IMG/VR virus record: IMGVR_UViG_3300027899_000001
Span: 334,373 to 398,372 of that record
Source of the DNA: a virus
Length of the DNA: 64,000 nucleotides
Strand: one strand, 5' to 3'
In this document: positions 2,177 through 27,420 of the stretch, piece by piece
Numbering within the stretch: position 1 is the stretch's first letter
Layout: each line of letters opens with the position of its first letter
Notes under the pieces: generated by a model
The model's database searches: none
Told to the model about the DNA's origin: nothing
The model's input: the letters and a program-made list of their open reading frames with translations, nothing else
Translations under genes and position numbers: made by a program

Positions 2177-2190
2177 TAACATTTAATTTA

Positions 2191-2233
2191 GAGTGTAAAT
2201 ATAATACTAATTTCTGAATTAAAAAAATATTTT
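2191..2233 (-). promoter_or_regulatory. conserved promoter-like motif, copy 1
   Basis: gtgtaaatataatactaatttctgaattaaaaaaatatttt; in gene sense this is AAAATATTTTTTT..TCAA/TTCAG..TTATATTTACAC. Confidence 0.5.
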
Positions 2234-2238
2234 ATCAA

Positions 2239-4890: not shown

Positions 4891-4914
4891 ATATTCTATT
4901 TATCTAACAAAACA

Positions 4915-4943
4915 AAAGGCCAAGATTATAAAACCTTGGCCTT
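4915..4943 (-). terminator. hairpin GGCCAAG..CTTGGCC followed by a T-run on the minus strand
   Basis: ggccaagattataaaaccttggcc; in minus-strand sense it is followed by TTTTGTTTTGTT and lies just upstream of the start of 4066..4890. Confidence 0.4.
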
Positions 4944-4949
4944 TCAATA

Positions 4950-5560
4950 TCGTCTGAGAAAAATTAGGAAGCGTGTTTTTATAAGTTGTCTCTTATGCTC
5001 TAACCTACTTATCAATCTGTCCTGTACGTGATTAAAAGACGCCTAAGACACCGCACCTTCGGGAATTACGGCCCTTTCGGGAAAATTGATGTTCAGAATC
5101 AAGAGCGCTGTCATAGTTTGAATTTATCTAGGTTGCCGAAATCCATCAGCTGGGTTTTAACTATGTTGCCATAGAAAAAAGGTTTCGAAGTACCGCTTGA
5201 CCTTACTACAGATGTTGTTTAAAATATAACTGAGAATTGTTGTTTTGTGCGTTTTAAGGAATTATCTTTCCGAAAATCGTTGCGGTGATTTTCAATACCG
5301 TGCTGTGTTGTGTAGGCCGAAGCCGCAAACCTTGAGCGTTATTTAACTGATTTAATTGGCATTGCTGCCGATCAATAGTATGACTCTTTCGAGCCAGAAG
5401 TTGCCGAGGCAACGTTTTGTTGGTTTCGAAGTATCACAAAAACTTCACTACAGTTTTATTATTAAAAATTTTAAAGAACTTTTATATACTATATATGGAT
5501 TTAAAAAGTATTAGTTTTATAACTTAATGCATTTATTTCATTAATATATAAAATAAAAGT
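4950..5560. other. GC-rich (about 45-50%) non-coding island with stable tetraloop hairpins; candidate structured RNA or intron/mobile-element remnant
   Basis: No ORF of 60 aa or more; CTTCGG and CTTTCGG tetraloop hairpins; two copies of the GTTTCGAAGTA..CTTACTACAG repeat (about 5181-5210 and 5419-5448); composition contrasts with the flanks. Confidence 0.4.
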
Positions 5561-5570
5561 AGTAAGTTTT

Positions 5571-6146
5571 ATGATTAAAGAAGAAAAACATCATTATGTA
5601 TATTTAACTACTAATCTTATCAATGGTAAACAATATATTGGTGATAGAACATGTAAATGTAATCCTGAAAATGATAAGTATTTAGGAAGTGGCAGACCAT
5701 ATTTTCAAAATGCTATTAAAGAATATGGAAAAAATAATTTTAGCAAACAAATACTTGAATGTTTTAATACAAGAGAAGAAGCTTTTAATGCCCAAGAAAA
5801 ATATATTATACAATATAATACGCTTATTCCTAATGGATATAATATAAGTCCTAAAGGTGGCCATAATGTTAAAGAATGTTGGAGCAAAGAATCTAAAGAA
5901 AAATGCAGTAACACTAAAAAAGGAAAAATTGGATATTGGAAAAATAAAAAATTATCAGAAGAACATATTAAACATTTAAAAGAAAATCATAAAGGAATGT
6001 TAGGAAAATATCATTCAGATGATTCTAAATTACAACTTAGTAATTCAATGAAAATCAAAAATAACGGAAAAGAAACAGAAGAACATAAACAAAAAATAAA
6101 ATTAAGTATGCAAAATTATTGGGCAAAAAAGAAATTAGTGCATTAA
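5571..6146 (+). CDS. GIY-YIG homing endonuclease (Seg/I-TevI-like)
   Basis: N-terminus HYVYLTTNLINGKQYIGD matches GIY-YIG; the basic C-terminal repeats (GKIGYWKNKKLSEEHIKHLKENHKG) resemble NUMOD DNA-binding modules; it is on the opposite strand to its neighbours. Confidence 0.8.
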   Translation: MIKEEKHHYVYLTTNLINGKQYIGDRTCKCNPENDKYLGSGRPYFQNAIKEYGKNNFSKQILECFNTREEAFNAQEKYIIQYNTLIPNGYNISPKGGHNVKECWSKESKEKCSNTKKGKIGYWKNKKLSEEHIKHLKENHKGMLGKYHSDDSKLQLSNSMKIKNNGKETEEHKQKIKLSMQNYWAKKKLVH

Positions 6147-6364: not shown

Positions 6365-7579
6365 TTATTTTATATTAAGTTGATATTTACAAAATTCTAT
6401 CATTTTTTCATCTCCTGTATGTTTTCCTTCTGAATCAGACAATTTAATACAAGGTACCCATTCATCGTCAGGATCAGGTTTTGCTGCAATTAGTTTAATA
6501 ACCATATTAAGTGGGTTAACTCCAACATCATTAGATAAATTTGTGCCTATTCCCATTGCGCATTTAATTTCTTTATTACATGATTTTGTTAATTCAATTG
6601 CAAGATCAGGATTAAGATTATCTGAAAAAATTATAGTTTTATCATTGGGGTCAATTCCCATACTTTGATAATGTTTAATAACTTTTTCTGCAAAATGAAA
6701 TGGATTTCCACTATCATGTCTTACACCATCAAAAAGCTTTGAGAATTTTTTTCCAAATGATTTAAAGAATGATTCTGTTGTAAATGTATCTGTAAGAGCA
6801 ATTCCAAGATCACCTTGATAAACATTTGACCAGTTTTCAAGAGCTAAAAAATTTGCTTGTTTAAATCCATATTTTGCAGCATGAAACATAAACCATTCAT
6901 GTGCATGAGTTCCTATTGGAGTAAGATTAAACATATGAGCAAAGTGTACATTAGAAGTTCCATTAAAATTATCTCTCATACTAAATGCTAAATCTTCTAC
7001 AACTTCTTTTTGATTTTCATATGAATATCTTCTACGAGTTCCAAATTCAGAAATCTTAACTCCATGATTATTAAATAATGCAGCTTTTTTTAGATTATTT
7101 TGTTCTCTTTCTACTCTTGAATTTATTTTTTCTCCCGTCATTTTAAAATACAATTCAGATATAAGAGCAAGAAGTGGAACTTCCCAAAGAATTGTACGAT
7201 ACCAGTAGCCTTCTACAGTTACTTGAAGTTCACTTCCATTTTGTATAACTCCAACTTCTGAAGGATTATATCTATATCCTGCCAAAAAATCAAAATACGC
7301 AGGATCGATATATTTACATTTAGTTTCAAAGAAGTGTTTTTCTGCAGTCAAAAGTTTAAGAGAAGACATATGAGAAATTTGTAATCTTAGTTCTTCTGCA
7401 AATCCTTCTGGAAAATTTACTTTTGAACGAACTATTAATGCATATTTAACTTTTGCTCTTGGAAAAAGTTTTAACACTGCATTCATCATACTAAATTTAT
7501 AAAGATCGTTATCGAGTATTGATGTAATTATAGGTTCCATTTTATATTTTTTTAGCATGAAAATAAGTGACTCCATCAA
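6365..7579 (-). CDS. pncB: nicotinate phosphoribosyltransferase
   Basis: N-terminus TSILDNDLYKFSMMNAV and GTHAHEW are characteristic of PncB; about 404 aa. Confidence 0.85.
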   Translation of the reverse strand: MMESLIFMLKKYKMEPIITSILDNDLYKFSMMNAVLKLFPRAKVKYALIVRSKVNFPEGFAEELRLQISHMSSLKLLTAEKHFFETKCKYIDPAYFDFLAGYRYNPSEVGVIQNGSELQVTVEGYWYRTILWEVPLLALISELYFKMTGEKINSRVEREQNNLKKAALFNNHGVKISEFGTRRRYSYENQKEVVEDLAFSMRDNFNGTSNVHFAHMFNLTPIGTHAHEWFMFHAAKYGFKQANFLALENWSNVYQGDLGIALTDTFTTESFFKSFGKKFSKLFDGVRHDSGNPFHFAEKVIKHYQSMGIDPNDKTIIFSDNLNPDLAIELTKSCNKEIKCAMGIGTNLSNDVGVNPLNMVIKLIAAKPDPDDEWVPCIKLSDSEGKHTGDEKMIEFCKYQLNIK

Positions 7580-8009
7580 TTTCTGTCATATCAAGAATTT
7601 TAAATTGATATGCACTAAATAATGCTGTTACAATTCTTGGTGTTAACGATCTATCAATTTTATTATCTAATAAATTAAATATAACATCTATAAGCTTTCC
7701 ATATAATATATGAGTTTTTAAACTCAACATAGGTTTACTTGCTATAAATTTTCCATATACATAAGTATTCTTTTTTAAAAGATTATTAAAATCTTTAATA
7801 GTATCGTCTAAATATTTAATTTCATTTAATTTTTTAAGATGAACAAGCGTTTTAATTCCTTTTAGTTCATCTTTATCATAGAAATAAAAATGTTTTCCCG
7901 AAAGAAATAAAACTTTTTCATCTTTAACTTTTTTATGTTTTTGCACATATGCATGCATAACATGATCATATGTTTCATCTTTATATTGAATATCATTAAA
8001 ACTTTTCAT
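7542..8009 (-). CDS. hypothetical protein
   Basis: 155 aa ORF in the operon. Confidence 0.4.
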   Translation of the reverse strand: MKSFNDIQYKDETYDHVMHAYVQKHKKVKDEKVLFLSGKHFYFYDKDELKGIKTLVHLKKLNEIKYLDDTIKDFNNLLKKNTYVYGKFIASKPMLSLKTHILYGKLIDVIFNLLDNKIDRSLTPRIVTALFSAYQFKILDMTEIDGVTYFHAKKI

Positions 8010-8011
8010 TA

Positions 8012-8377
8012 TTATCTTATTCTAAATGTATCAAAAAATGTTCTAAACGATAGTCTTTTTTTCAAAATTATTGTTTCAGATACGTATTGAGTATCATTTT
8101 CATAATATTTTGTTCCTTTAGGAATTATGAATTTAAATACAGTTAAGTAAGAATGAGCATCATCTGCCGCAATTTTAAAACTTTTATATGAATGATAGCC
8201 TATGTTAATAGAAACTTGATCATAATAAAAAGTAGCATCAAATTCTACTTTTTTATTTAAAAGATTTTTAGTATATTGAAAATCTGTAAACCAAGATATT
8301 CCTCTTCTAGTCATAGTTTTATAACAAACTATATCTTTTTTTGCTGTTTTAAGAACATTTTTTCCAGTAAAACACAT
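8012..8377 (-). CDS. hypothetical protein
   Basis: 121 aa ORF. Confidence 0.4.
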   Translation of the reverse strand: MCFTGKNVLKTAKKDIVCYKTMTRRGISWFTDFQYTKNLLNKKVEFDATFYYDQVSINIGYHSYKSFKIAADDAHSYLTVFKFIIPKGTKYYENDTQYVSETIILKKRLSFRTFFDTFRIR

Positions 8378-8388
8378 ATTTTTAATTT

Positions 8389-9293
8389 TTAAAAGATTAG
8401 ACTTCCTTCATCATCCCAACGACAATATAATTTACTATTTTCTCTTAAGATAACATATTTAAGAGATTCGTTATTGCCTTTAGACATACAATCATCATCA
8501 ATAACAACTGACATTCCATTTATAGAATAAACTTTTGCACCAAACGGAAGAGTATAAAGAAATTCACCATTTCCCGCCTTTTTAGGAAACATTCTCTCAG
8601 TTCCTATATATGCATTTTCTCCTGTAATATATTTCTTAATAGCACTTATAGTTTCGTCTTTACATGCATTTTCTTTAACCCATTCACCTTCGTCATTTAT
8701 AATAAATCCATCTTTATCTAACTCATAATATATTTTTCTAAAAGTAACTTGATTTGCACCAAGAAATTTACATCTAGCTATAATTTCTTTTGGAGTATGA
8801 TTATCATATTCTTTTAACATATTAAGACTTAAACGAATATTAAATCCTCGTGATTTAAGTAAAGAAATTAATTCTGATAAGTTAAATTTTAATTTTTTAG
8901 AAACTCCAATTATATTTAAATTATTTTCATCAGAAAAAATATCAGCAACAGAAAGACTTATCGTATTTACTTGAAGTTTTTGTAATAATCAATATTATCA
9001 TCATCTAATAATACTCCAGTAGTTTGTAACTCAACATTAGGAAATGGATAATTTAAATCTTTAAATAAAACAGATAAAACTTTTAAGAAATTTGTATTTT
9101 GCAAAGCTTCTCCTGTTCCTGTAAGAATACAAGTATTTACTCCATTCATTACAGCATACTTAATACGTTTTTCTATTTGAATATACATAAAAGTATCTTC
9201 ATATGGAGAATCATGCATTCTACTTACACAAAATGGACATTTATTTACACAACTTTTTGTAGGAACTACGATAGAAATTGTCTAAATGTTCAT
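8389..9293 (-). pseudogene. radical-SAM-like gene interrupted by an in-frame TAG (codon 4) and a -1 frame change at an AAAAAAC site; either a pseudogene or a recoded gene
   Basis: From the ATG at 9291-9293 the reading is ATG AAC ATT TAG ACA.. TKSCVNKCPFCVS (CxxxCxxC) ..LTGTGEAL (GGE-like) up to the stop at 8967. The -1 frame is open from 8991 and runs into ORF 8389..8820 with no start codon. The overlap contains TAC AAA AAC. Confidence 0.5.
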
Positions 9294-9307
9294 ATATTAA
9301 TTATTAT

Positions 9308-9350
9308 TGTGTAAATATAATACTAATTTCTGAATTAAAAAAATATTTTG
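9308..9350 (-). promoter_or_regulatory. conserved promoter-like motif, copy 3
   Basis: tgtgtaaatataatactaatttctgaattaaaaaaatatttt, 17 nt upstream of the ATG at 9293. Confidence 0.5.
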
Positions 9351-9359
9351 CTATTTATT

Positions 9360-10010
9360 TTAAATATTTCCTATAAAAGAAAGTGTAAGAGAATCTACAT
9401 AATAAACTTTAGCTTGTGTAAAAGCTTCTATAGTTTCTGACAAATCTGAATTTATTGATTTACACGCATCTTCAATAACATATGTATTAAAACCTTCCAT
9501 TGCTGCATCTATTGCAGTTTCTTTCACACAATAATCTAGAGCTAAACCACATACGTAAACTTCAACTACATTTCTTTCATTAAGAAAATCTTGAAGTTTT
9601 TTAGGAGCATCTGGATTTATTATTTTTGATCTATCAAATGCACTATAAACATGATTATTCCTTTCCATGCCTTTTTTAAAGATATAAAAATCTTTTTTGC
9701 ATTTTGATAAATTCAGATCTGGATGAAATGAAGCACCTAATGTATCTGCTACACAATGATCAGGCCAAAGAATATCTTTTTCTCCATTTTCTCTTACGTA
9801 ACTATCGTAAACAGAAGCTCCGGGATGTTGTGAGGCGAAAGCATCCATTTCTGGATCATGCCAATCTTGTGTAAATATAACTAAATCAAATCTTTCAAGG
9901 AGATCATTAACTACGGGTACAATTTTGTCTCCATCTGGTACTGCTAGTGATCCTCCAGGGCAAAAATCTCTTTGCAAATCGATCACTATTAATGCTTTTT
10001 TCTTTATCAT
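9360..10010 (-). CDS. pncA: nicotinamidase (isochorismatase family)
   Basis: VIDLQRDFCPGGSLAV matches the PncA N-terminal motif; about 216 aa. Confidence 0.8.
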   Translation of the reverse strand: MIKKKALIVIDLQRDFCPGGSLAVPDGDKIVPVVNDLLERFDLVIFTQDWHDPEMDAFASQHPGASVYDSYVRENGEKDILWPDHCVADTLGASFHPDLNLSKCKKDFYIFKKGMERNNHVYSAFDRSKIINPDAPKKLQDFLNERNVVEVYVCGLALDYCVKETAIDAAMEGFNTYVIEDACKSINSDLSETIEAFTQAKVYYVDSLTLSFIGNI

Positions 10011-10011
10011 A

Positions 10012-10170
10012 TCATCTTATAGTTTGAATTTCATATTCATCATATCCATCTCTTGATTCATCTGAATCTATACATACAATTTCTAATCCAAATGATTGTA
10101 AAGCGTCTGATATATTGTCTACAATTTCATCAGCTCTATCATCATAATCTACTCTAAATTTTGATTTCAT
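10012..10170 (-). CDS. small acidic ORF (52 aa) translationally coupled between nadE and pncA
   Basis: ATG at 10168-10170 overlaps the nadE stop (ATGA) and its own TGA overlaps the pncA ATG (ATGA); it is below the ORF-track size cutoff. Confidence 0.4.
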   Translation of the reverse strand: MKSKFRVDYDDRADEIVDNISDALQSFGLEIVCIDSDESRDGYDEYEIQTIR

Positions 10171-11102
10171 AATTCTTCCTTTTTATTTTTAACATATCTA
10201 TTGTATATACTATTTTCATTTTCTATTATATCGTGTCTATATATATTGACAGGATTATTTCTTTTGAATTGAGATTTTAAATGTCGTTGAATGACAGAGT
10301 GTTGACGCATTTTATTAATTTCATCCATATATACTGCATTAACAGTTGGTGAATGTTTTTCAATAAAGTCTAAATATTCTTTAAGTATTCTATCAACTTC
10401 TTTATAACCATCTCTAGAATTTCCTGTCCAGTCTGGCATTATTTGTCCAAGATCTCCAAGATTTGTAACTCCAAGGCCATCAGTTGCAAGTGCAGTTATC
10501 GTATTTATTATTGTACTTCCTGCTTCATAATTTCCAGCATATTCATTCATAGTTAACCATTCTGCCATATCATATACTTCTGTTTTCCAAAGATTTTGTA
10601 TCATACCATAATCACCTACATCACCATGAAGAGTCCAAAAACCAAGAAGAAATTCTGTATAATTATCAGTAGAAAGAACTATTCCACGATGATATGAAGC
10701 TAAATCATACAAATAAATCATACGCAGTCTTGCTTTAAGATTTCCATTACGTATACGACTTGATGAACCTTCAGGATTAGGCGCATGAAACAGCATATTA
10801 GATTCCATTTTGGAATACATAAAATTATATTCTTCTTCAACGCTATGCTCTAAGAATTTTGTACAAAATACTTTTCCTGTTAATTTGGCTCTTTCTAATT
10901 CTTCTGGTTGATTTGAACTTACTGGCAAACTTCTTCCTATAAGTGGAATATTTAATTCATCACAAACTGGTCTAGCAAGTGCTGCGCAAAGACAACTATC
11001 TATTCCACCTGAAATCCCTATAATAAGAGACTTTATATTATTGTTTGTAATATACAGACTTAATTCTTTTCGAATATTCGATACTGCTATTTGATAATTC
11101 AT
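10167..11102 (-). CDS. nadE: NH3-dependent NAD+ synthetase
   Basis: PP-loop GISGGIDS ATP-pyrophosphatase motif; about 311 aa. Confidence 0.8.
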   Translation of the reverse strand: MNYQIAVSNIRKELSLYITNNNIKSLIIGISGGIDSCLCAALARPVCDELNIPLIGRSLPVSSNQPEELERAKLTGKVFCTKFLEHSVEEEYNFMYSKMESNMLFHAPNPEGSSSRIRNGNLKARLRMIYLYDLASYHRGIVLSTDNYTEFLLGFWTLHGDVGDYGMIQNLWKTEVYDMAEWLTMNEYAGNYEAGSTIINTITALATDGLGVTNLGDLGQIMPDWTGNSRDGYKEVDRILKEYLDFIEKHSPTVNAVYMDEINKMRQHSVIQRHLKSQFKRNNPVNIYRHDIIENENSIYNRYVKNKKEEL

Positions 11103-11371: not shown

Positions 11372-11875
11372 TTATAAATCATTTTCTTTGTGTTTACACC
11401 AAGTTAGATATTCATCTTGATCTCTTATCCATTGTAATAATTCTGGATCAGTAACTTGTTCATGTTCTATTTTAGACCATAATTCGTTATCTCTTTCATT
11501 TTTATCATATTGATTAACGAAATATATTTTCTTAATTCCCGCTGCTATTATATTTTTCAAACATTCACTGCAAGGTTCAAGTATACAATAAAGTTCTGCT
11601 TCTTCAATAGCAATTCCATGTTTGGCTGCAAAATTAATAGCATTCATTTCAGCATGAACCTCATATTTTTTAGACCAATTATGATGGGCTTCTCTATCAG
11701 TTAGAAAATTATAATTAGGAAAATGATCACAACAATTTTCAAATCCTTTAGGTGTCCCATTTATTCCCGTGGAAATAATTCTTCTATCATGAACAATAAG
11801 AGCTCCCACTTGTCTTGAGACACATTTAGATTCTTGTCCAAGTAAATATGCTGTTTTAAGAAAGAAATGTTTCAT
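11372..11875 (-). CDS. dCMP deaminase (cytidine/deoxycytidylate deaminase zinc-binding)
   Basis: HAE...PCxxC motif (HAEMNAI...EPCSECLKNI). Confidence 0.8.
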   Translation of the reverse strand: MKHFFLKTAYLLGQESKCVSRQVGALIVHDRRIISTGINGTPKGFENCCDHFPNYNFLTDREAHHNWSKKYEVHAEMNAINFAAKHGIAIEEAELYCILEPCSECLKNIIAAGIKKIYFVNQYDKNERDNELWSKIEHEQVTDPELLQWIRDQDEYLTWCKHKENDL

Positions 11876-12441: not shown

Positions 12442-14145
12442 TTAGATTTCAATCTTGTTGATTTCATCTATGATTACCTGTGGGTTTATTTCAACCTGAG
12501 GAATCTTTTCGTAGATGTCTTGACCGTAGCCGTAAAGACGGAATACTCTGTTTCCACCCTTTATAGGAGCAGTTGCTGCATATCCGCATACGTTGATGAT
12601 GTATACGTATGGTGTTCCGAACTTCTTGCAGTATCCTGCATAAGAATTTTCTACATTGCTGTATCCATCCTGTTCGTCAGAGATGATAAGAATTCTATCG
12701 TACTGCTTGTTAGTTCTTTCAAACAACTTGAAGCAAGAACCGAAATCTGTACCGTGACCGCAACATCCGTTGTAGGACATGAACTTCTGCTTTAACGTAT
12801 TGATTGAATCGATTGGGTTCCAACCTACAATCTGTTCAGCAGTAGAAGCGAAATGGTATACATCTCCACCAACACCCTTTGCAAATGTTGCAGCTACAAG
12901 TGCAGCCTTGTCAGCTGGCTTCTTATTGATAGCCTTCTTAGGGTCACCATTAAGATAAATGCTGGAGTATCCACCTTTCATAGAACCTGATGTATCGAAT
13001 ACAACTGCTGTTCTACCTTCTGGAAGCAAGTTCTGAAGGTTTGGAATTGACAATTCATATGCTGTTGAAAGTGCCTTTGCAACCTTAGCCAACTGTGTTC
13101 CGTTGAATTCAAGTGTCATCACTTCAAGAGCAATGTCAATCTGGTGTGGCCATACAAGAGACTTACGGATGAATTCCTTTTCAACAAGTAAATCGCACGC
13201 CTTGTCAAGAAGAACAGTATCATTGGTCTTAAGAATGTTACGTACGTTACGAAGTAATGCAAGGTACCCAATCTTCTTAGTTTCAATAAGTTCCTTGTAG
13301 TTTTCAGTCTTAGCTTCATTAAGTTCAACAGTTGCCTGTTCCTTAGTGATAGTTCCAGCCTTAACCTTTTCAGCTACAACCTTTCCTGCTTCAGTATTCT
13401 TATCTTCAACAGTGTTGAACTGCTTAAGAACGCCAAGAACAAGAGCCTTAAGAGTTGGAAGACCAACATTACCATTTTCAGGTGCATCTAAAAGATATTC
13501 ATCCTTTTCGAACTTAGTACCCTTAACAGCCTTCAAGTATTCAGCTTCTGATACAAATACTGTTCCATTTATAGGTGTTTCATGTGGGTGCACTAAGTTA
13601 ACGATGTCAACAAGGCTTACACCACGTGACTTCATCTGGTACTTAGCTAACTGATATGCATCTGCATGTTCAATTGCATCCTTGAATCCCTTCTTAATAG
13701 CGTTTGGAATTGGTGCTTCTACACCATTCTTAGCCTGGTAACATGCAAGAATTTCTGCCATGTCATCAAGACGATAAACGATACCTCCACGATTTTCCTT
13801 ACGGTCTCTCTTAGAGAAGAATCTCTTAGCGATTTCAGAACCTGCAAGGTGAGGGATTAATTCTACTGCACCGTAATGAGTAACAGAACGCTGTCCAAAT
13901 ACTGTACGTGCATAGATAAGTGCCTTAGCTGCGAATAATGCATTCTTCTGCGCAACTCTATTGATAACTTCACGGAATCTCTTTTCACGTTCAGTTTCCT
14001 TTTCGTAATAAGTATTATCTAAACCAGTAGATAAAATACCAATTAATTCATGTTCTGGCTTCTGTGTTAAACCAGTTCCACCCTGTAAAGTTACAGTTTC
14101 CTTAACTTCTGGGTTGCTTACTCTCTTTTCATTGTACTTTGACAT
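12442..14145 (-). CDS. rsr: Ro60-like TROVE-domain protein with C-terminal vWA domain
   Basis: TROVE-like N-terminal region; vWA MIDAS motif VVFDTSGSM; GC content clearly higher than its surroundings; strong Shine-Dalgarno AAAGGAGGT 7 nt upstream of the ATG, unlike the neighbouring genes. Confidence 0.7.
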   Translation of the reverse strand: MSKYNEKRVSNPEVKETVTLQGGTGLTQKPEHELIGILSTGLDNTYYEKETEREKRFREVINRVAQKNALFAAKALIYARTVFGQRSVTHYGAVELIPHLAGSEIAKRFFSKRDRKENRGGIVYRLDDMAEILACYQAKNGVEAPIPNAIKKGFKDAIEHADAYQLAKYQMKSRGVSLVDIVNLVHPHETPINGTVFVSEAEYLKAVKGTKFEKDEYLLDAPENGNVGLPTLKALVLGVLKQFNTVEDKNTEAGKVVAEKVKAGTITKEQATVELNEAKTENYKELIETKKIGYLALLRNVRNILKTNDTVLLDKACDLLVEKEFIRKSLVWPHQIDIALEVMTLEFNGTQLAKVAKALSTAYELSIPNLQNLLPEGRTAVVFDTSGSMKGGYSSIYLNGDPKKAINKKPADKAALVAATFAKGVGGDVYHFASTAEQIVGWNPIDSINTLKQKFMSYNGCCGHGTDFGSCFKLFERTNKQYDRILIISDEQDGYSNVENSYAGYCKKFGTPYVYIINVCGYAATAPIKGGNRVFRLYGYGQDIYEKIPQVEINPQVIIDEINKIEI

Positions 14146-14189: not shown

Positions 14190-14420
14190 TTAACATATTA
14201 CTATAAAATGTTTTCTGTTTTCATTATCTTCACACTTAACAGGCATGAATCTTTTATCTTCATAATCTTCTCTTGCAACTTGCATCCAACCATTTTCGGT
14301 TCCTGCTGGATTGTCTCTATTTGCTACCTCAAGTATTTCTTCATCAGTAGCGTCCCATTCTGCGCAAACTTGCATATAACATATGCCTATCATCGGCTGT
14401 GAAACTATTACTCTTTCCAT
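14190..14420 (-). CDS. hypothetical acidic protein
   Basis: 76 aa ORF. Confidence 0.4.
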   Translation of the reverse strand: MERVIVSQPMIGICYMQVCAEWDATDEEILEVANRDNPAGTENGWMQVAREDYEDKRFMPVKCEDNENRKHFIVIC

Positions 14421-14439
14421 ATTAAATTTTATTAAAAAT

Positions 14440-14480
14440 AAAAAAGCCTGAGTAATTTTTTACGATTTCTCAGGCTTTGC
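14440..14480 (-). terminator. rho-independent terminator (GCCTGAG..CTCAGGC followed by TTTTTTATTTTT) about 25 nt upstream of the ATG at 14420
   Basis: aaaaaagcctgagtaattttttacgatttctcaggc; the T-run is on the minus strand. Confidence 0.5.
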
Positions 14481-14686
14481 AATATAATCATAAAGTTCAA
14501 GTTATGAGCTATGCAAATAAAAGTTGAGAAATCTGAGAAGAGTTTAAATTGAAAATTCTAATAAAGATCGTTCGATGTAACTCTTTCTCTTACTACAATC
14601 AATTATATTATTATATATAAAGTCAAAAACTCTTTGTTTTTAGACTTAGTGTTAAAATTTTGTTAAAGATTTATTTATTAAAATTA

Positions 14687-14728
14687 TAGTGTAAATATAA
14701 TAAAAATTCTTGACAGAAAAAACTTTTT
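14687..14728 (-). promoter_or_regulatory. conserved promoter-like motif, copy 4
   Basis: tagtgtaaatataataaaaattcttgacagaaaaaacttttt; it lies about 210 nt upstream of the terminator at 14440-14480. Confidence 0.45.
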
Positions 14729-14742
14729 ATGTTAAAATTTTG

Positions 14743-15336
14743 TTAAAATAATGAAATATTTTTGGTACGATGTAATAATCCATATATTATAAATGCATGA
14801 CCCATCTTTTTATTTGGATCTGTAATAACATCCATAAGAGATTTATTCATCTTAACATGATTGTATCCATCAAAATCTATCAAATAAATATCTCGTTTTT
14901 CAGTTTTATATAATTCTAAAAGTTGCTTATATGCTTCGCTTTGTAATAAAGCTCTTTTATAAATAGGAATGTAAATTTTAATTCTTGCTTGAATATATGA
15001 TAATTTTTCTCCATCCCAATAACTATATAAAGGTTTTGCATCTCTACCCATAGGATATCTGTGAGCAAAATTATCATTCCATATTTTTTCAGCCCATTCA
15101 AAATATGCTGGAGAAGGATCGCCTTTTTCATCTACAAATTCTTTATATACCTTTGATGCTTGCCAGGCGTTTTCTACATTCTTTGCATAATATCCTTTAT
15201 ACAAATGCCCGCCCGGAAGAACAAAAGGAGATAAACCTTGAGTCCAATTTCCTGAACCTGCTCTTGAAGTTGTATTAATTACTACTGCGCCCTCAGGTAT
15301 CTCATACCTTTTAGCGTATGATTCTACGTATAACAT
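14743..15336 (-). CDS. NADAR/YbiA-like (DUF1768) domain protein; candidate ADP-ribose-processing or DNA ADP-ribosyl hydrolase
   Basis: SPFVLPGGHLYKGYYAKNVENAWQASKV resembles the NADAR core (SPF...G..Y...E.A.QA.K). Confidence 0.45.
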   Translation of the reverse strand: MLYVESYAKRYEIPEGAVVINTTSRAGSGNWTQGLSPFVLPGGHLYKGYYAKNVENAWQASKVYKEFVDEKGDPSPAYFEWAEKIWNDNFAHRYPMGRDAKPLYSYWDGEKLSYIQARIKIYIPIYKRALLQSEAYKQLLELYKTEKRDIYLIDFDGYNHVKMNKSLMDVITDPNKKMGHAFIIYGLLHRTKNISLF

Positions 15337-19457: not shown

Positions 19458-19554
19458 GTGTATAAATGTTTAGTTAATAAAAAATTTATATTTATATATA
19501 TGTTAAAAGTTTTATATTTTGATGTAAACAAAATGATATTTGATGTAAAATTTG

Positions 19555-19627
19555 TCCCTCTAGAGAGATTCGAACTCTCGACACGCGGGATTAGAAGCCG
19601 CTGGTCTGACCACTGACCTATAGAGGG
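19555..19627 (-). tRNA. tRNA with apparent CUA (amber-suppressor) anticodon; the alternative reading is Arg(UCU)
   Basis: The 73-nt canonical parse gives acceptor CCCTCTA/TAGAGGG, D-arm GGTC-AGTGGTCA-GACC, anticodon stem GCGGC/CCCGC (4 of 5 bp) with loop TTCTAAT, T-arm GAGAG-TTCGAAT-CTCTC. Reading the loop as CTTCTAA (UCU) requires dropping nt 26 and leaves a poor stem. Confidence 0.5.
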
Positions 19628-19655
19628 TAAAAGAGGGCATTTAACCCTCATTGTT

Positions 19656-19982
19656 TTATTCTTTTTTTGTATGAAATTCTATACATTTATTTATTGCGTT
19701 TGGATATTGATTAAGAGGGTGATTTTCTTCAGGGTAATGATTTTCAATCTGTGAGAATTTTTTTCCTCTCATTAATCCATATGCTGCATATTTAATTCTT
19801 AATTCTAATCCGCCTACGTAAGATTTCCATGCGGCGTCTTTAGGTTCTATAATTCTTTCACCTTTTAAATGAACAGTCTTTCTTTGATTTTTCATAGCTC
19901 TTTGTAATGCTGCGCTTTGTTTAATATCTTTTTTTAAAGATTCGATTGCGACTTTATCGATTGTTTTTTCTATTGTTTCCAT
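19656..19982 (-). CDS. hypothetical protein
   Basis: 108 aa ORF. Confidence 0.4.
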   Translation of the reverse strand: METIEKTIDKVAIESLKKDIKQSAALQRAMKNQRKTVHLKGERIIEPKDAAWKSYVGGLELRIKYAAYGLMRGKKFSQIENHYPEENHPLNQYPNAINKCIEFHTKKE

Positions 19983-20151: not shown

Positions 20152-20502
20152 TTAAAGTTTTGTTAATGTTTCTTCTTTTAAAGCTAATGGTAAATTGGAT
20201 GTTAATTTATGAGATCTTTCTCCAGGTTCAATAGCGATCGCAGTTAATTGATTTCCAATATCTGGTTCAAGAAACGTTGTATACTTTAAATCGTAAAATT
20301 TAATTTTTTCTAAAAGGTGTTTAAGTTGTTGTTCATTTTCAACAGATAAGAATATCAAATACTTAGAATTAGTATTCCATTCCTTTGCGATTTCTGGATG
20401 TTCATGTTGAAATTCAATTGCAGCATGTGCGGCTTGAACTGCCTGATAACCCGGAGTTAAATCTCTACGGGTAATAACAATTAATTTGTGTATCTATTTC
20501 AT
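20152..20502 (-). CDS. peptidyl-tRNA hydrolase PTH2 family; the only ATG is followed by an in-frame TAG at codon 3
   Basis: ATG AAA TAG ATA CAC AAA.. reads M K * I H K L I V I T R R D L T P G Y Q A V Q A A H A A I E F Q H E H P E I A K E W N..; this matches PTH2 in pattern (hVVRxDLxMGKGKxAAQxSHAA, PExLKxW, ..AIxxGP). The track shows only the C-terminal 68 aa starting at an internal Met. Confidence 0.6.
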
Positions 20503-22065: not shown

Positions 22066-22139
22066 TACTGCGTGCGGAGCTCGAATCCGCGAATTCAGGA
22101 TTGAAAGTCCTGTGTGTTAACCAACTTCACCAACGCAGC
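22066..22139 (-). tRNA. tRNA-Glu(UUC)
   Basis: Acceptor GCTGCGT/ACGCAGT, anticodon stem CAGGA/TCCTG with loop CTTTCAA, T-arm GCGGA-TTCGAGC-TCCGC. Confidence 0.55.
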
Positions 22140-22416
22140 ATATTTAATTTCAGAAATTCTGAGAATCGAGAATCACCGTGAAACTTTTGTCTATCACAAG
22201 GATGCCAACCCACCCTTCAACTGTTTTAACGCCGAGTTGGGGTCGCTTTATCAGTTGCATTTAATAACTTAAAAAAATCGTTACAAGGAATCAAACCCTG
22301 TTATTTCTTCGCTGAGTCCATACTATAGCTAGGATTATTCATTTACTTCATAGATTTCACTACCTCTTGGTTTTTAAGCGAATCGAGGATAACGATTTTT
22401 TATTTTTTCAAAGAAC

Positions 22417-22647
22417 TTATAATAATCTTTTATCTTTTTTATATTTTTTAAATTCTACGTCTGTATCTATTGTTGTATCTAATTTATCTTTGTATTCTTT
22501 CATTAACCATTTTGCAAATCCCAATTTTAATTTAGTAGTTTCAAGATCATCAATAGTAAATAACATATTATATTGTATTGAATAATCTGCTCTATCTATT
22601 AAACTATCCAATTGATCTGTTATAACTTTTGATACTGATCCTGTCAT
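22417..22647 (-). CDS. hypothetical protein
   Basis: 76 aa ORF. Confidence 0.4.
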   Translation of the reverse strand: MTGSVSKVITDQLDSLIDRADYSIQYNMLFTIDDLETTKLKLGFAKWLMKEYKDKLDTTIDTDVEFKKYKKDKRLL

Positions 22648-24994: not shown

Positions 24995-25054
24995 ATTGTT
25001 TTTATATTATATATCTAAAAATTAGTCGAGTTTTAATTATTCGAACAAAAAATG

Positions 25055-25134
25055 TAGGGTGAACGGGATTCGAACCCGCGTAAAAACTCCTGATCCCAAA
25101 TCAGGCGAGATAAACCTGGCTCCTCTACCACCCT
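25055..25134 (-). tRNA. tRNA-Pro(UGG) candidate
   Basis: Acceptor AGGGTGG/TCACCCT, anticodon stem CCTGA/TCAGG with loop TTTGGGA, T-arm GCGGG-TTCGAAT-CCCGT. Confidence 0.5.
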
Positions 25135-25883: not shown

Positions 25884-26549
25884 CTACAACTTTATATTAA
25901 ATATTTTTTCATAATTTTGAATATCTGATAAAAATATCATTTCAATATTATTATAATTACTCAAAATATATCTCATTTTCTTTTTATCTTCTTCTTCATA
26001 TCTTCCTTTAACTTCAAAGAACTTTTTTAAATTTGGACACCAAAAATCTGGATAATATGTGTGAATTTCCCCGAATTCATTTGTCCAAGATAAACCATCA
26101 GAAAAAGGCTTTATCCAATCTTTATCTATAATATTTAAAATAACTGCGAAACGTTTTTCATAGGTTCCTTGTACTTTTATCTTTGTTCCATCAGGTTTTA
26201 TAATTTCATACCATTTACATTTTCCGCCAGTTATCCATCCTTTATTATTTATAGATATTTTTCTTTTTGTTTCTAAATCTCTTGGACCATTTTTTCTTCC
26301 TTTCAATTTAGAAGGTCTTCCTTTTTTAGTATCCCAAACTCTATTTTCAGAATGAATAGCCCAAATATGAAATTTTACGCCTCTAGGATTATCATATTCT
26401 TTTTCACATATTGGACATTTATGAAAACCATTAGGTTGTTTATAAATATTAACTTTATTTTGTCTATTACCACATTTTTCATAATGTTTCTTAAAATTTG
26501 ATAAACTTATTTCTTTATTACATTTATCACAAATTCTTTTATTTACCAT
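25884..26549 (-). CDS. zinc-finger plus PD-(D/E)XK nuclease (paralog of 740..1432)
   Basis: MVNKRICDKCNKEISLSNFKKHYEKCG.. and YYPDFWCPNLKKFFEVKG. Confidence 0.6.
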   Translation of the reverse strand: MVNKRICDKCNKEISLSNFKKHYEKCGNRQNKVNIYKQPNGFHKCPICEKEYDNPRGVKFHIWAIHSENRVWDTKKGRPSKLKGRKNGPRDLETKRKISINNKGWITGGKCKWYEIIKPDGTKIKVQGTYEKRFAVILNIIDKDWIKPFSDGLSWTNEFGEIHTYYPDFWCPNLKKFFEVKGRYEEEDKKKMRYILSNYNNIEMIFLSDIQNYEKIFNIKL

Positions 26550-26673
26550 ATTTTTATTTTATATATTCATATAGTAATTCTTTAATTTACTACTTAATGT
26601 AACACTTGTTCATTACTACATTGCTGAGAAAGCCGAAAAGTGTGTAATTAGCTTTTAACTTTTCCCCCATTTG

Positions 26674-26756
26674 AGACCGAGAAGGGATTCGAACCCTTGT
26701 GAGCTTTCGCTAATGGTTTTGCAGACCATCCTTTTCAACCACTCAAGCACTCAGTC
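26674..26756 (-). tRNA. class II (long variable arm) tRNA with apparent GCA anticodon
   Basis: Acceptor GACTGAG/CTCGGTC, D-arm CTTGAGTGGTTGAAAAG, anticodon stem ATGGT/ACCAT with loop CTGCAAA, variable arm about 14 nt, T-arm AAGGG-TTCGAAT-CCCTT. Confidence 0.5.
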
Positions 26757-26830: not shown

Positions 26831-26941
26831 GCATTTATTTTCTATTTTTTTTACTTATCTTAAAAATTGTATACAAATATAAACAATAATCTTGATATAA
26901 AAAAATAATTTAACACTTATTTTAAAGAACTATATAAACAA

Positions 26942-26966
26942 AGAACCCTCCGTATTTTGGAGGGTT
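26942..26966 (-). terminator. rho-independent terminator (9-bp stem)
   Basis: GAACCCTCCgtatttTGGAGGGTTC followed by TTTGTTTAT in minus-strand sense. Confidence 0.5.
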
Positions 26967-27198
26967 CAGAAAGGAGTATATAATAAATGATATTATTACC
27001 TACGCTTAACTATTCCCTCCGTTTTAACAAAATAACATAACGGTAGCTGCTCGCTAACTTGTGGGAGTTGTTGTGAAAAAGAAGAATATGTAGGTTTCAA
27101 TATCATCACTTAATATTTCTTAATTTTAATATATATCAATGTATATTTGTAAATTATATATACTGAATGCAAAAAGTTTTAAAAAAATGAAAAATAAT

Positions 27199-27420
27199 TT
27201 AATCATTAAAAATTTTAACCAAATATAATGCTTCTTGTCTTTGTAAAAGTTCTTCATTTAATCTATCATGCAGATCTTCTATATTTACTAAACCATTCTT
27301 TTTGGCTGCTTTAACGTAATTATTTATTAGAACCTTACAATTAGTTATCTGATCTTCATTTTGACAAGAATTTATAATTCCTAATATTTTTTTAACTGGT
27401 ACAGAATTTTTATTTTTCAT
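27199..27420 (-). CDS. hypothetical protein
   Basis: 73 aa ORF. Confidence 0.4.
   Translation of the reverse strand: MKNKNSVPVKKILGIINSCQNEDQITNCKVLINNYVKAAKKNGLVNIEDLHDRLNEELLQRQEALYLVKIFND

What the first reader, a model, noticed from the sequence alone, without database searches (positions are those of the whole stretch)
19555..19627. tRNA with an apparent CUA (amber) anticodon, plus two genes whose only ATG is followed by an in-frame TAG within 1-2 codons
The canonical 73-nt parse of this tRNA gives anticodon loop TTCTAAT (34-36 = CUA) on a 4/5-bp stem. The alternative Arg(UCU) reading needs a missing nt 26 and a poor stem. Its 5' half (CCCTCTATAGgtcagtgg) resembles the window's tRNA-Gln(CUG) (tgTTCTATAGcgtaactgg). 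Two coding regions with strong domain signatures have no usable canonical start except an ATG that runs straight into TAG. The PTH2 gene reads ATG AAA TAG ATA CAC AAA.. (20494-20502), followed in frame by the complete PTH2 catalytic domain starting KLIVITRRDL. The radical-SAM-like gene reads ATG AAC ATT TAG ACA.. (9282-9293), followed in frame by CxxxCxxC. Elsewhere TAG seems rarely used as a stop: all stops I checked were TAA or TGA. This pattern fits amber read-through by a phage-encoded suppressor acting as an expression gate for selected genes. Large genes are intact under the standard code, so this is not genome-wide recoding.
Basis: partly seen in the sequence, partly recalled or inferred. 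Interest (0 to 1): 0.8.

Follow-up and report, generated by a model that had tools for sequence, protein, structure and literature searches.

The report
Amber-gated PTH2 gene with suppressor tRNA
A giant-phage fragment carries a tRNA that reads the UAG stop codon next to a peptidyl-tRNA hydrolase gene that can only be translated by reading through a UAG at its third codon, and the same pairing recurs in many unrelated phages, which may explain what their puzzling suppressor tRNAs are for.

Summary
ARAGORN and Rfam both call 19555-19627 (minus strand) as a tRNA with a CUA anticodon. The PTH2 gene starts ATG AAA TAG (20502-20494, minus), with the domain directly after. The radical-SAM gene starts ATG AAC ATT TAG (9293-9282).

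The window otherwise uses the standard code.

The early UAG in PTH2 is conserved:
- 42 of 68 distinct phage PTH2 homologues have a start, usually 1-3 codons, then an in-frame TAG.
- The base after that TAG is a purine in all 42.
- 33 of 42 have no canonical start between TAG and domain.
- Some carry a second, internal TAG with homology continuing past it.
- dN/dS is 0.11-0.33.

A tRNA(CUA) lies in 45 of 68 loci and is the tRNA nearest to PTH2 in 18 of 22. Cultured phages share the pattern (Salmonella Arash, Serratia BF, Acinetobacter ME3, Tenacibaculum pT24, Xanthomonas XacN1).

The radical-SAM TAG replaces a conserved Gln, but that gene also has a frameshift and is probably decaying.

Best reading: PTH2 is gated by the phage's own suppressor, not by genome-wide recoding. 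I found no paper describing this. No experiment supports it yet.

The parts
19555..19627 (-). Amber-suppressor tRNA, anticodon CUA. It has a 7-bp acceptor stem (C1-G72), discriminator A73, a 5-nt variable loop, no encoded CCA, and a C.C mismatch at the loop-proximal anticodon-stem pair.
   Evidence: ARAGORN. Rfam RF00005 gives 59.8 bits, with the alignment shown. It is the nearest of the window's 19 tRNAs to PTH2.
20494..20502 (-). Leader of the PTH2 gene: ATG AAA TAG. This is the start codon, one Lys codon and an in-frame amber codon, followed by A (ATA).
   Evidence: Sequence. The same start + 1-3 codons + TAG architecture is found in 42 of 68 PTH2 homologues, always followed by a purine.
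20152..20493 (-). PTH2-type peptidyl-tRNA hydrolase domain ORF: 113 codons after the TAG plus a TAA stop. There is no ATG/GTG/TTG until codon 46.
   Evidence: Pfam PF01981, 9.5e-10, 39.1 bits against 23. A profile of the phage family hits solved Pth2 structures, 2zv3 at 1.3e-9. dN/dS against relatives is 0.11-0.33.
19656..19982 (-). 108-aa ORF of unknown function lying between PTH2 and the tRNA, on the same strand.
   Evidence: ORF list. No Pfam or NCBIfam hit.
19633..19649 (.). GC-rich hairpin (GAGGGCATTTAACCCTC). On the minus strand it is followed by TTTTA and then the tRNA 5' end. It may be a weak terminator or a processing hairpin between orf108 and the tRNA.
   Evidence: Terminator scan, reported on the plus strand. 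Sequence. The minus-strand reading is my inference.
8967..9293 (-). Radical-SAM gene, N-terminal frame: ATG AAC ATT TAG(9284-9282), then the CxxxCxxC motif. It ends prematurely at TAA 8967 because of a frameshift.
   Evidence: Pfam Radical_SAM. The TAG aligns with Gln in 43 of 46 homologues.
8389..8988 (-). Radical-SAM gene, C-terminal part in the -1 frame. The break is near 8985-8990, most simply a 1-nt deletion (TATTTAC to TATTAC).
   Evidence: All 46 homologues are contiguous ORFs. An independent Logan assembly of SRR5272498 is identical here.

Best explanation
The window is a fragment of a megaphage distantly related to the Lak phages that uses the standard genetic code here. It carries a two-part translational module.

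Part one is an amber-suppressor tRNA (anticodon CUA, 19555-19627, minus strand). Part two lies 0.5 kb upstream on the same strand. It is a PTH2-type peptidyl-tRNA hydrolase gene whose only usable start is followed by one Lys codon and then UAG (ATG AAA TAG, 20502-20494).

A ribosome that starts at this ATG has two outcomes. Host RF1 can release it at UAG after two residues. Or, when charged phage tRNA(CUA) is available, it reads through and makes the full enzyme of about 116 residues. PTH2 synthesis therefore depends on, and scales with, the phage's own suppressor. This is a coherent feed-forward gate.

Putting the UAG in a short, non-conserved leader has two consequences. The failure product is a harmless di- or tripeptide. 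And the identity of the inserted amino acid does not matter, which fits the very different tRNA bodies that carry CUA in different phages. The purine after the UAG is the context known to favour suppression.

Shown here: the anatomy, its conservation, the synteny, purifying selection, and Shine-Dalgarno placement in relatives.

Inferred: that read-through actually happens, which amino acid is inserted (Gln is weakly suggested), and the purpose. My best guess at the purpose is that PTH2 is wanted only once the phage tRNA set and suppressor are active. It would then recycle peptidyl-tRNAs produced when suppression and tRNA take-over disturb termination.

The second in-frame TAG, at codon 4 of the radical-SAM gene, replaces a conserved Gln. 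It sits in a gene that is also frameshifted, so it is probably a tolerated or decaying lesion and not a designed gate.
For: 1. The tRNA is called with anticodon CUA by two independent tools.
2. The PTH2 domain begins 1-3 residues after the TAG, and the first canonical start is 46 codons in.
3. 14 of 15 IMG/VR relatives (35-81% identity) have ATG + 1-12 codons + in-frame TAG at varying positions. So do four huge-phage genomes, LR756500, LR756501, LR756504 and LR745206.
4. HMM census: 42 of 68 distinct PTH2 homologues have a leader TAG (38 after dropping 4 doubtful cases). The distance from ATG to TAG is 2 codons in 23 of them. The next base is A in 31 and G in 11. There is no ATG/GTG/TTG between TAG and domain in 33 of 42.
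5. The PTH2 genes of L002, L032 and L074 have internal TAGs with homology continuing past them.
6. dN/dS is 0.11-0.33 for the ORF after the TAG.
7. Cultured phages show the same leader: pT24 (MK@I), ME3 (MT@I), Arash (ML@N), BF (MTH@N), XacN1 and RAS14 (MK@T). In Arash, BF, XacN1 and RAS14 a GAGGA/AGGA Shine-Dalgarno sits 6-8 nt before the ATG that precedes the TAG. Homology between RAS14 and XacN1 runs right up to the TAG.
8. A tRNA(CUA) is in the same locus and on the same strand in 45 of 68 cases despite short flanks. It is the tRNA nearest to PTH2 in 18 of 22 loci with at least 3 tRNAs, against 3.4 expected by chance. In the 14 IMG/VR radical-SAM loci (L017-L030), which serve as a control, the only CUA tRNA found again lies next to a PTH2 gene (L030).
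9. PTH2 is the only credible gene with a TAG leader in every locus scanned.
10. The window has 0 TAG-split ORFs against 1 TGA-split. Lak loci have ORFs with 30-40 TAGs.
11. The radical-SAM TAG aligns with Gln (CAA or CAG) in 43 of 46 homologues.
Against: - There are no expression, charging or proteomic data. Read-through is inferred.
- The tRNA has a C.C mismatch in its anticodon stem.
- About 7 window genes end in TAG and would be extended by 0-31 codons by an efficient suppressor. Suppression must therefore be partial or timed.
- 26 of 68 PTH2 homologues lack a leader TAG, yet 17 of these still have a CUA tRNA nearby. The tRNA-PTH2 link is thus broader than gating and not fully explained by it.
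- The codon after the TAG is often ATT, ATA, GTG or ATG (17 of 42), all of which can act as start codons.
- In mycobacteriophages Alice and Myrna the Shine-Dalgarno spacing fits the GTG after the TAG.
- The protein scores far below the NCBIfam Pth2 equivalog cut-offs (32.9 against 126), and the catalytic Lys of archaeal Pth2 is not obviously aligned. Its exact activity is uncertain.
- Discriminator A73 does not fit E. coli GlnRS identity rules (the rule is from my own knowledge).
Confidence: 0.65

Rival explanations
1. Start-stop mini-ORF with re-initiation or a non-canonical start. ATG AAA TAG would be a two-codon upstream ORF. PTH2 would really initiate at the codon just after the TAG (ATA or ATT here, GTG in mycobacteriophages). 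The tRNA(CUA) would be irrelevant to it.
For: The codon after the TAG is ATT (12), ATA (2), GTG (2) or ATG (1) in 17 of 42 cases. In Alice and Myrna the Shine-Dalgarno spacing fits the GTG after the TAG, and that GTG is the annotated start.
Against: In 25 of 42 cases the next codon is not a start codon (ACN, AAY, GTA, AGA, GAC and others). The TAG lies 1-14 codons from the domain, at variable positions, and L015 has two TAGs. Internal TAGs occur in L002, L032 and L074. The Shine-Dalgarno is placed for the upstream ATG in Arash, BF, XacN1 and RAS14. This model does not explain why tRNA(CUA) is the nearest tRNA in 18 of 22 loci.
Confidence: 0.12
2. Whole-genome TAG reassignment (code 15), as in the Lak megaphages. 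TAG would be a sense codon everywhere in this phage and simply rare in this 64-kb stretch. Heavily recoded late genes would lie outside the window.
For: The closest named relatives by clamp loader are the Lak phages (41% identity), which are densely TAG-recoded. The contig of origin is 0.2-1 Mb, so most of the genome is unseen. The window is AT-rich (28.9% GC), a condition linked to recoding in the Borges et al. preprint.
Against: About 7 genes end in TAG at ordinary gene junctions, for example TAG..ATG of the next gene at 41974/41971, and a TAG TAA tandem at 25884. Tail-fibre-like genes of 1295 and 2290 aa contain no TAG. The window has 0 TAG-split ORFs against 1 TGA-split, and the 40-kb segments of four related huge phages look the same.
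Confidence: 0.08
3. Decay or error. Both TAG-containing genes would be pseudogenes or assembly artefacts, and the tRNA would be an orphan with no client in this genome.
For: The radical-SAM gene carries two lesions, a TAG at codon 4 and a frameshift. None of its 46 homologues shares either.
Against: For PTH2 the early TAG is conserved in dozens of divergent phages, and the ORF is under purifying selection. An independent assembly has the identical sequence across the radical-SAM gene.
Confidence: 0.04
4. The tRNA is really tRNA-Arg(UCU) with a mis-parsed anticodon loop.
For: Its nearest neighbours in my tRNA set are Arg(UCU) and Arg(CCU) tRNAs at 76-79% identity. The loop region reads CUUCUAAUC, so UCU is one register away.
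Against: ARAGORN and the Rfam covariance model both place CUA at positions 34-36 in a 7-nt loop with U33 and A37. The UCU register needs a worse stem. Every related PTH2 locus has an unambiguous CUCUAAA-loop CUA tRNA.
Confidence: 0.02

Closest known systems
TAG-recoded (code 15) phages with suppressor tRNAs: Lak megaphages and crAss-like phages (Borges et al. preprint 10.1101/2021.08.26.457843; Peters et al. PMC9523058; Yutin et al. PMC7886860)
   Same: A phage-encoded tRNA(CUA) decodes in-frame UAG in phage genes while the host uses the standard code. The proposed role is to make expression of certain genes conditional on the suppressor. The genome is AT-rich, and the window's clamp loader is 41% identical to that of the Lak phages.
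   Different: In those phages tens to hundreds of TAGs are spread through late, structural and lysis genes (for Lak). Here there is one conserved client gene (PTH2), with the TAG placed in a 2-4 codon leader. TAG is still used as a stop for about 7% of genes, and structural genes are untouched. The Lak PTH2 genes themselves lack the TAG.
'Orphan' amber-suppressor tRNAs reported in standard-code phages: Xanthomonas XacN1 (PMC5852040) and Stenotrophomonas Summit (PMC9022506)
   Same: CUA tRNAs sit in genomes that otherwise use the standard code. XacN1 also encodes a protein with a PTH2 domain.
   Different: Those papers report that no target genes could be identified. The XacN1 authors tested read-through of the amber codons that end ORFs. 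Here a candidate target is identified. XacN1 ORF364 is preceded in frame by ATG AAG TAG, with a Shine-Dalgarno placed for that ATG.
Synthetic suppressor-tRNA feed-forward 'leak dampener' (PMC7969014, abstract seen)
   Same: The logic is the same. Translation of the target gene depends on a co-supplied suppressor tRNA.
   Different: That system is engineered in E. coli. This one is natural, conserved, and tied to one enzyme family. I read only the abstract, so the placement of the amber codons in that system comes from my own recollection.
Phage lambda bar minigenes and host Pth
   Same: ATG AAA TAG is formally a two-codon minigene. Such minigenes are known to cause peptidyl-tRNA drop-off, and their recycling depends on peptidyl-tRNA hydrolase. 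Here the minigene sits at the head of a peptidyl-tRNA hydrolase gene.
   Different: The bar minigenes are free-standing and toxic in pth mutants. Here the mini-ORF is in frame with the enzyme, and the TAG can lie up to 14 codons from the domain. No drop-off data exist for this gene.
PTH2 genes of jumbo phages (Iyer et al., PMC7824862)
   Same: The same archaeo-eukaryotic-type PTH2 domain is noted across jumbo phages and proposed to act in ribosome rescue and tRNA recycling.
   Different: That survey mentions neither the in-frame TAG nor the link to tRNA(CUA); the word 'suppressor' does not occur in the paper.
bldA tRNA-Leu(UAA) and the TTA codon in Streptomyces adpA (own knowledge; PMC10732093 listed, not read)
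   Same: A single codon near or within a gene makes its translation depend on one specific tRNA, which gives developmental timing.
   Different: That system uses a rare sense codon and a cellular tRNA, not a stop codon and a phage-encoded suppressor.

Membership tests
tRNA (Rfam RF00005), amber-suppressor type | Cloverleaf scoring above the family gathering threshold | tested here: met
   59.8 bits against 29, full-length model match. ARAGORN cloverleaf with 7-bp acceptor, 4-bp D stem, 5-bp T stem and a TTCGAAT T-loop.
tRNA (Rfam RF00005), amber-suppressor type | Anticodon CUA at positions 34-36 in a 7-nt loop with U33 and a purine at 37 | tested here: met
   The loop is U-U-C-U-A-A-U in both tools. 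The closing stem pair is a C.C mismatch.
tRNA (Rfam RF00005), amber-suppressor type | Is expressed, aminoacylated and decodes UAG | not testable with these tools
   There is only indirect support: conserved client TAGs in PTH2 genes.
PTH2 peptidyl-tRNA hydrolase (Pfam PF01981) | Sequence match above the Pfam gathering score over the whole domain | tested here: met
   39.1 bits against 23, profile positions 2-112 of 115. A family profile hits solved Pth2 chains 2zv3, 24bt, 1rzw, 1q7s, 1wn2, 1rlk and 1xty.
PTH2 peptidyl-tRNA hydrolase (Pfam PF01981) | Equivalog-level match to archaeal Pth2 (NCBIfam NF003314 / TIGR00283) | tested here: not met
   32.9 bits against a cut-off of 126, and 27.4 against 82. 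This is a divergent phage subfamily.
PTH2 peptidyl-tRNA hydrolase (Pfam PF01981) | Catalytic residues and hydrolase activity | tested here: inconclusive
   Q20, H23, E76, P77, D78 and T84 are invariant in the phage family. The EPD...T motif aligns with the region before the conserved TA of archaeal Pth2. The 'GK' Lys region aligns with a gap. Activity was not tested.
Code-15 (TAG-reassigned) phage genome | Many in-frame TAGs inside otherwise continuous genes, especially structural and lysis genes | tested here: not met
   There are 0 TAG-split ORFs in 64 kb against 1 TGA-split. Lak loci show ORFs with 30-40 TAGs. Genes of 1295 and 2290 aa are intact. The rest of the genome is unseen.
Code-15 (TAG-reassigned) phage genome | TAG not used as a terminator | tested here: not met
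   About 7 plausible genes end in TAG.
Suppressor-tRNA-dependent translational gate (feed-forward) | In-frame stop codon early in the client ORF, with no alternative start before the functional domain | tested here: met
   This holds in 33 of 42 homologues that have a leader TAG.
Suppressor-tRNA-dependent translational gate (feed-forward) | Cognate suppressor encoded by the same element and linked to the client gene | tested here: met
   In the window the two are 0.5 kb apart on the same strand. The CUA tRNA is the nearest tRNA in 18 of 22 loci against 3.4 expected.
Suppressor-tRNA-dependent translational gate (feed-forward) | Client expression depends on the tRNA | not testable with these tools
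   Needs reporter or proteomic experiments.
Radical SAM superfamily (PF04055), second proposed client | CxxxCxxC motif and a match above the gathering score | tested here: met
   34.5 bits against 29.5, motif CVNKCPFC. An intact homologue matches only generic radical-SAM models such as MoaA-like, all far below their cut-offs.
Radical SAM superfamily (PF04055), second proposed client | Continuous reading frame (apart from the TAG) | tested here: not met
   There is a frameshift near 8985-8990. All 46 homologues are continuous ORFs of roughly 280-313 codons.

The most novel reading that the evidence does not exclude
PTH2 plus tRNA(CUA) is an ancient, mobile two-gene module of tRNA-rich phages. 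The principal client of the suppressor, perhaps its only one, would be the hydrolase gene itself. The leader ATG-X-UAG would act as a bar-like minigene sensor. Its outcome (release by RF1, peptidyl-tRNA drop-off, or read-through) would set PTH2 synthesis according to the state of termination and tRNA recycling in the infected cell. Standing suppressors maintained for this purpose would be the pre-adaptation from which genome-wide TAG recoding, as in the Lak phages, evolved.
Probability: 0.25. Interest if true: 0.9.

Novelty: new variant of a known kind. Interest (0 to 1): 0.78.

Why it matters
Phage genome papers repeatedly report amber-suppressor tRNAs in standard-code phages with no identifiable target. 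Examples are XacN1 (PMC5852040) and Summit (PMC9022506).

This analysis points to one conserved target, the PTH2 hydrolase gene. In public records that gene is often unannotated, truncated or split because of the TAG (Serratia BF, Salmonella Arash, Tenacibaculum pT24).

If confirmed, the finding would do four things:
- Give a function to these tRNAs.
- Provide a natural, minimal example of stop-codon gating of a single gene.
- Offer a plausible stepping stone towards full TAG reassignment in the Lak and crAss-like phages.
- Link suppression mechanistically to peptidyl-tRNA recycling.

It can be tested directly in cultured systems (Salmonella, Serratia, Acinetobacter, Xanthomonas, Tenacibaculum). 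It also has a practical consequence. Gene callers and annotators should look for start-X-TAG leaders on PTH2 genes whenever a CUA tRNA is present.

Tried and rejected
- Megablast of 10 kb around the tRNA against 50,697 phage records gave no match.
- An exact search for the tRNA's D and anticodon arms in IMG/VR gave no match, so I could not build an orthologue alignment to test covariation for this particular tRNA.
I replaced it with a degenerate EPDIGNQxTA DNA motif scan.
- I tried to walk out of the window with the look-up of encoding contigs. The 2290-aa protein is not on record. The other look-ups returned only short Logan contigs of SRR5272498 that are identical to the window. The rest of the genome therefore stays unseen.
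- I tried to assign the amino acid from tRNA similarity. CUA tRNAs of different loci are only 42-70% identical to the window's, and each resembles a different isoacceptor (Arg, Leu, Ile, Glu, Trp). No assignment was possible.
- I looked for further TAG-interrupted genes in ORF-free gaps of the window (1789-2238, 4880-5580, 14400-14760, 22130-22430, 26880-27210). Nothing convincing turned up.
- A sigma-70 promoter scan around the module gave a count no higher than in shuffled sequence.
- A first regex-based census timed out and was replaced by an hmmsearch on six-frame ORFs.
- Eight literature searches found no paper linking a PTH2 leader TAG to suppressor tRNAs. The library lacks most subscription journals, so prior description cannot be excluded.
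Full report
**What is in the window**

The window is AT-rich (28.9% GC). Genes are densely packed, mostly on the minus strand up to about 48.8 kb and then on the plus strand. It carries 19 tRNA genes, all on the minus strand.

Recognisable genes include:
- a sliding-clamp loader, a 5'-3' exonuclease, NAD-salvage enzymes and a TROVE/Ro-like protein;
- a collagen-like tail-fibre protein of 1295 aa and a 2290-aa DUF285/PKD protein.

There is no nucleotide-level relative among 50,697 phage records. By protein, the closest named relatives are the Prevotella Lak megaphages (clamp loader 41% identical) and unnamed metagenomic phage genomes of 462-735 kb (LR756500, LR756501 and others). Its proteins also occur on contigs of 0.2-1 Mb. 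So this is a fragment of a megaphage.

**Checking the observation**

ARAGORN calls 19554-19627 (minus) as a tRNA with anticodon CTA. The Rfam tRNA model matches 19555-19627 at 59.8 bits (E 2e-10). That is the fourth best of the window's tRNAs. The anticodon loop is UUCUAAU, and one non-standard pair (C.C) closes the anticodon stem. The alternative Arg(UCU) register has no support from either tool.

On the minus strand the PTH2 gene reads ATG AAA TAG ATA CAC AAA TTA ATT GTT ATT ACC CGT (20502 onward) and stays open to TAA at 20152. Pfam PTH2 matches from the third residue after the TAG, at 39.1 bits against a cut-off of 23. The first ATG/GTG/TTG after the TAG is 46 codons in.

The radical-SAM gene reads ATG AAC ATT TAG ACA..., followed by CVNKCPFC.

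First, TAG is an ordinary minority stop. It ends 13 of 111 ORFs in a greedy set, and about 7 plausible genes end in TAG. Second, the radical-SAM gene also has a frameshift near 8985-8990. The likeness to the window's tRNA-Gln(CUG) is only 63%.

**Is the window recoded?**

No. I counted long ORFs that become continuous only if TAG is read as sense. The window has 0, against 1 for the TGA control. Forty-kb segments of four related huge phages look the same. Lak phage segments, in contrast, contain ORFs with 30-40 in-frame TAGs. ORF-free gaps hide nothing convincing.

**The early TAG in PTH2 is conserved**

This is the key result. Of 15 IMG/VR loci encoding PTH2 relatives (35-81% identity), 14 have an ATG, then 1-12 codons, then an in-frame TAG directly before the domain. 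The TAG position varies (codon 3, 5, 7, 9 or 10), and two identical loci have two TAGs. Four huge-phage genomes show ATG + 1-2 codons + TAG.

A degenerate motif scan (EPDIGNQxTA) brought in 49 viral loci. I then ran an HMM census over six-frame ORFs of everything fetched and found 68 distinct PTH2 homologues:
- 42 have a leader TAG, or 38 after removing RaK2, two mycobacteriophages and one case without an upstream ATG.
- The distance from ATG to TAG is 2 codons in 23 of the 42.
- The base after the TAG is a purine in 42 of 42 (A 31, G 11).
- 33 of 42 have no canonical start between the TAG and the domain.

Three genes (L002, L032, L074) have an additional TAG inside the domain, with clear homology continuing past it. 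The ORF after the TAG is under purifying selection, with dN/dS of 0.11-0.33 against seven relatives. A gene that is conserved, selected and lacks any other start must be translated through the TAG.

**Cultured phages show the same thing**

| Phage | Leader | tRNA(CUA) | State of public annotation |
|---|---|---|---|
| Tenacibaculum pT24 | ATG AAA TAG ATA | tRNA-Sup 2.6 kb upstream | annotated CDS starts inside the domain |
| Acinetobacter ME3 | ATG ACT TAG ATT | 'anticodon CTA' tRNA about 0.45 kb upstream | annotated CDS starts 6 codons after the TAG |
| Salmonella Arash | ATG CTG TAG AAC | 1 kb downstream, annotated as tRNA-Phe | 'peptidyl-tRNA hydrolase' CDS truncated to 50 aa |
| Serratia BF | ATG ACG CAC TAG AAT | tRNA-Sup 3.3 kb downstream | ORF not annotated at all |
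| Xanthomonas XacN1 (ORF364), Stenotrophomonas RAS14 | ATG AAG TAG ACC, at the head of an HD-domain + PTH2 fusion | none within the 3-5 kb flanks I fetched; the XacN1 paper reports two CUA tRNAs | annotated starts lie downstream of the TAG |

In Arash, BF, XacN1 and RAS14 a GAGGA/AGGA Shine-Dalgarno sits 6-8 nt upstream of the ATG that precedes the TAG. Homology between RAS14 and XacN1 runs right up to the TAG.

The XacN1 paper states that no targets could be found for its two CUA tRNAs. The authors tested read-through of the amber codons that end ORFs.

Mycobacteriophages Alice and Myrna have ATG/GTG TAG GTG, but there the Shine-Dalgarno spacing fits the GTG after the TAG. I treat them as ambiguous. 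Alice nevertheless has an annotated 'tRNA-suppressor (cta)' 250 nt after its Pth gene.

**Linkage to the tRNA**

A CUA tRNA lies in the same locus and on the same strand in 45 of 68 cases, although many loci are short. Among loci with at least 3 tRNAs, it is the tRNA nearest to PTH2 in 18 of 22, where 3.4 would be expected by chance. This includes the window, where it is the nearest of 19.

In the 14 IMG/VR radical-SAM loci (L017-L030), which serve as an unplanned control, the only CUA tRNA again lies next to a PTH2 gene (L030).

A second PTH2 subfamily (MKKLYVLVRKDLS...) has no leader TAG, but the CUA tRNA starts within about 100 nt of its stop codon. Contigs binned into bacterial or archaeal MAGs show the same module.

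PTH2 is the only credible gene with a TAG leader in every locus scanned.

**The radical-SAM gene**

Across 13 viral and 33 metagenomic homologues, the residue aligned with the window's TAG is Gln in 43 (mostly CAA) and Ala in 3. None has a TAG there, and all are continuous ORFs.

The window copy also lacks one base, most simply TATTTAC to TATTAC, which splits the gene. A separate Logan assembly of SRR5272498 has the identical sequence.

So this TAG is not a conserved gate. It is either a lesion in a decaying gene or a Gln-to-TAG change that is tolerated because a suppressor is present. It is the only hint here that the suppressor might insert Gln.

**Which amino acid?**

Unresolved. CUA tRNAs of different phages are only 42-70% identical to the window's, and they resemble different isoacceptors. 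Most have discriminator A73. Internal TAGs align with E, Q or D positions. Because the leader is not conserved, the identity of the inserted residue probably does not matter. That would explain why such different tRNA bodies can serve.

**Mechanism proposed**

Ribosomes start at the ATG. At UAG they are either released by RF1 after a di- or tripeptide, or they read through using the phage tRNA(CUA). PTH2 output is thus gated by, and scaled to, the active suppressor.

The A or G after the UAG is the context known to favour amber suppression (own knowledge). Very short nascent chains terminate poorly and are prone to drop-off (own knowledge: the lambda bar minigene literature), which would also favour the suppressor.

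The purpose is inferred. I think PTH2 is needed when the phage tRNA set and the suppressor are active, to recycle peptidyl-tRNAs that arise from disturbed termination. The tRNA is also linked to PTH2 genes that have no TAG, so the functional tie goes beyond gating. That part remains unexplained.

**Comparison with what is known**

Stop-codon recoding with phage suppressor tRNAs is established for the Lak and crAss-like phages. It has been proposed to time late-gene expression, and standard-code relatives that acquire suppressors have been described as an evolutionary precursor. PTH2 in jumbo phages has been noted.

I found no paper that connects the two, or that describes a start-X-TAG leader on PTH2. 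The library is incomplete, so this is not proof of novelty.

I therefore file the finding as a new variant of a known kind: single-gene, leader-positioned amber gating with a dedicated, syntenic suppressor in otherwise standard-code phages.

**Verdict**

Its interpretation is largely right for PTH2, doubtful for the radical-SAM gene, and wrong about TAG usage. The wider pattern uncovered here is more interesting than the single locus, and it can be tested in cultured phages.

Noticed in passing
window 565-648 (-) and 26673-26756 (-); also L006 3849-3932: tRNA-Trp(CCA) and tRNA-Cys(GCA) are 84 nt long, with a 3-bp D stem and a long stem-loop variable arm. In bacteria this class II architecture normally belongs to Ser, Leu and Tyr tRNAs. 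They could be charged with an amino acid other than the one their anticodon implies. tRNA-Pro(UGG) at 25054-25134 is also long (81 nt).
   Followed up: partly
L038 (Lak-B4) 7344-7416 and L040 (Lak-A1) 7233-7305: In the TAG-recoded Lak phages the PTH2 gene has no TAG. It lies about 500-600 nt downstream of a tRNA with a UUA anticodon, which would read the ochre codon TAA. Lak-B4 has an in-frame ATG AAT ATT TAA ATA five codons upstream of the PTH2 ATG.
   Followed up: partly
Public records: Serratia phage BF NC_041917 286092-286406; Salmonella phage Arash OQ632216 (L095 2989-3315 and tRNA at 4301-4375); Tenacibaculum pT24 NC_049383 (L037 4950-5903); Myrna NC_011273 (L035 6463-6534): Likely annotation errors caused by the TAG. 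The BF PTH2 ORF is not annotated. The Arash Pth CDS is truncated to 50 aa and its CUA tRNA is labelled tRNA-Phe. The pT24 CDS starts inside the domain. ARAGORN calls the Myrna tRNA annotated as tRNA-Ser as CUA.
   Followed up: partly
L004 about 9200-9990 (+): A second, partial PTH2-like N-terminus (MKNYTDGGTGTPM@IGSKLIVITRRDLSPGYQAVQAA...) also contains an in-frame TAG. It is fused to unrelated sequence and lies just upstream of the full PTH2 gene. L059 has a similar weak second copy (MT@I).
   Followed up: no
XacN1 L091 2448-3309, RAS14 L039 4439-5300, pT24 L037 4950-5903: In these phages PTH2 is fused to an HD-type domain (motifs HGLSV..., HDIGKP). The HD domain is N-terminal in XacN1 and RAS14 and C-terminal in pT24. 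This hints at a combined tRNA-end repair and peptidyl-tRNA hydrolysis function.
   Followed up: no
window 4890-5570: About 680 bp has no ORF of any length on either strand and lies between convergent or divergent genes. No Rfam family reaches its gathering score there. It could be a non-coding RNA or a regulatory region.
   Followed up: no
window 6365-11102 (-) and 12442-14145 (-): An NAD-salvage cluster: an NAMPT/NAPRTase-like gene at 6365-7579, an isochorismatase/nicotinamidase-like gene at 9360-10010 and NAD synthetase at 10167-11102. There is also a dCMP deaminase (11372-11875) and a 567-aa TROVE/Ro60-like RNA-binding protein.
   Followed up: no
L148 (JAOZSQ010000001.1, 426,929 bp, labelled Thermoplasmatota archaeon MAG): The contig carries a phage-style tRNA island, with PTH2 followed immediately by tRNA(CUA). 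It is probably a huge phage binned into an archaeal MAG by mistake.
   Followed up: no
window 25884-26549 (-) and 50543-51298 (+): The two largest TAG-terminated genes have a second stop right after the first (TAG TAA, and TAG GTC TAG). This would limit extension if the suppressor is active. With only two cases it may be chance.
   Followed up: no
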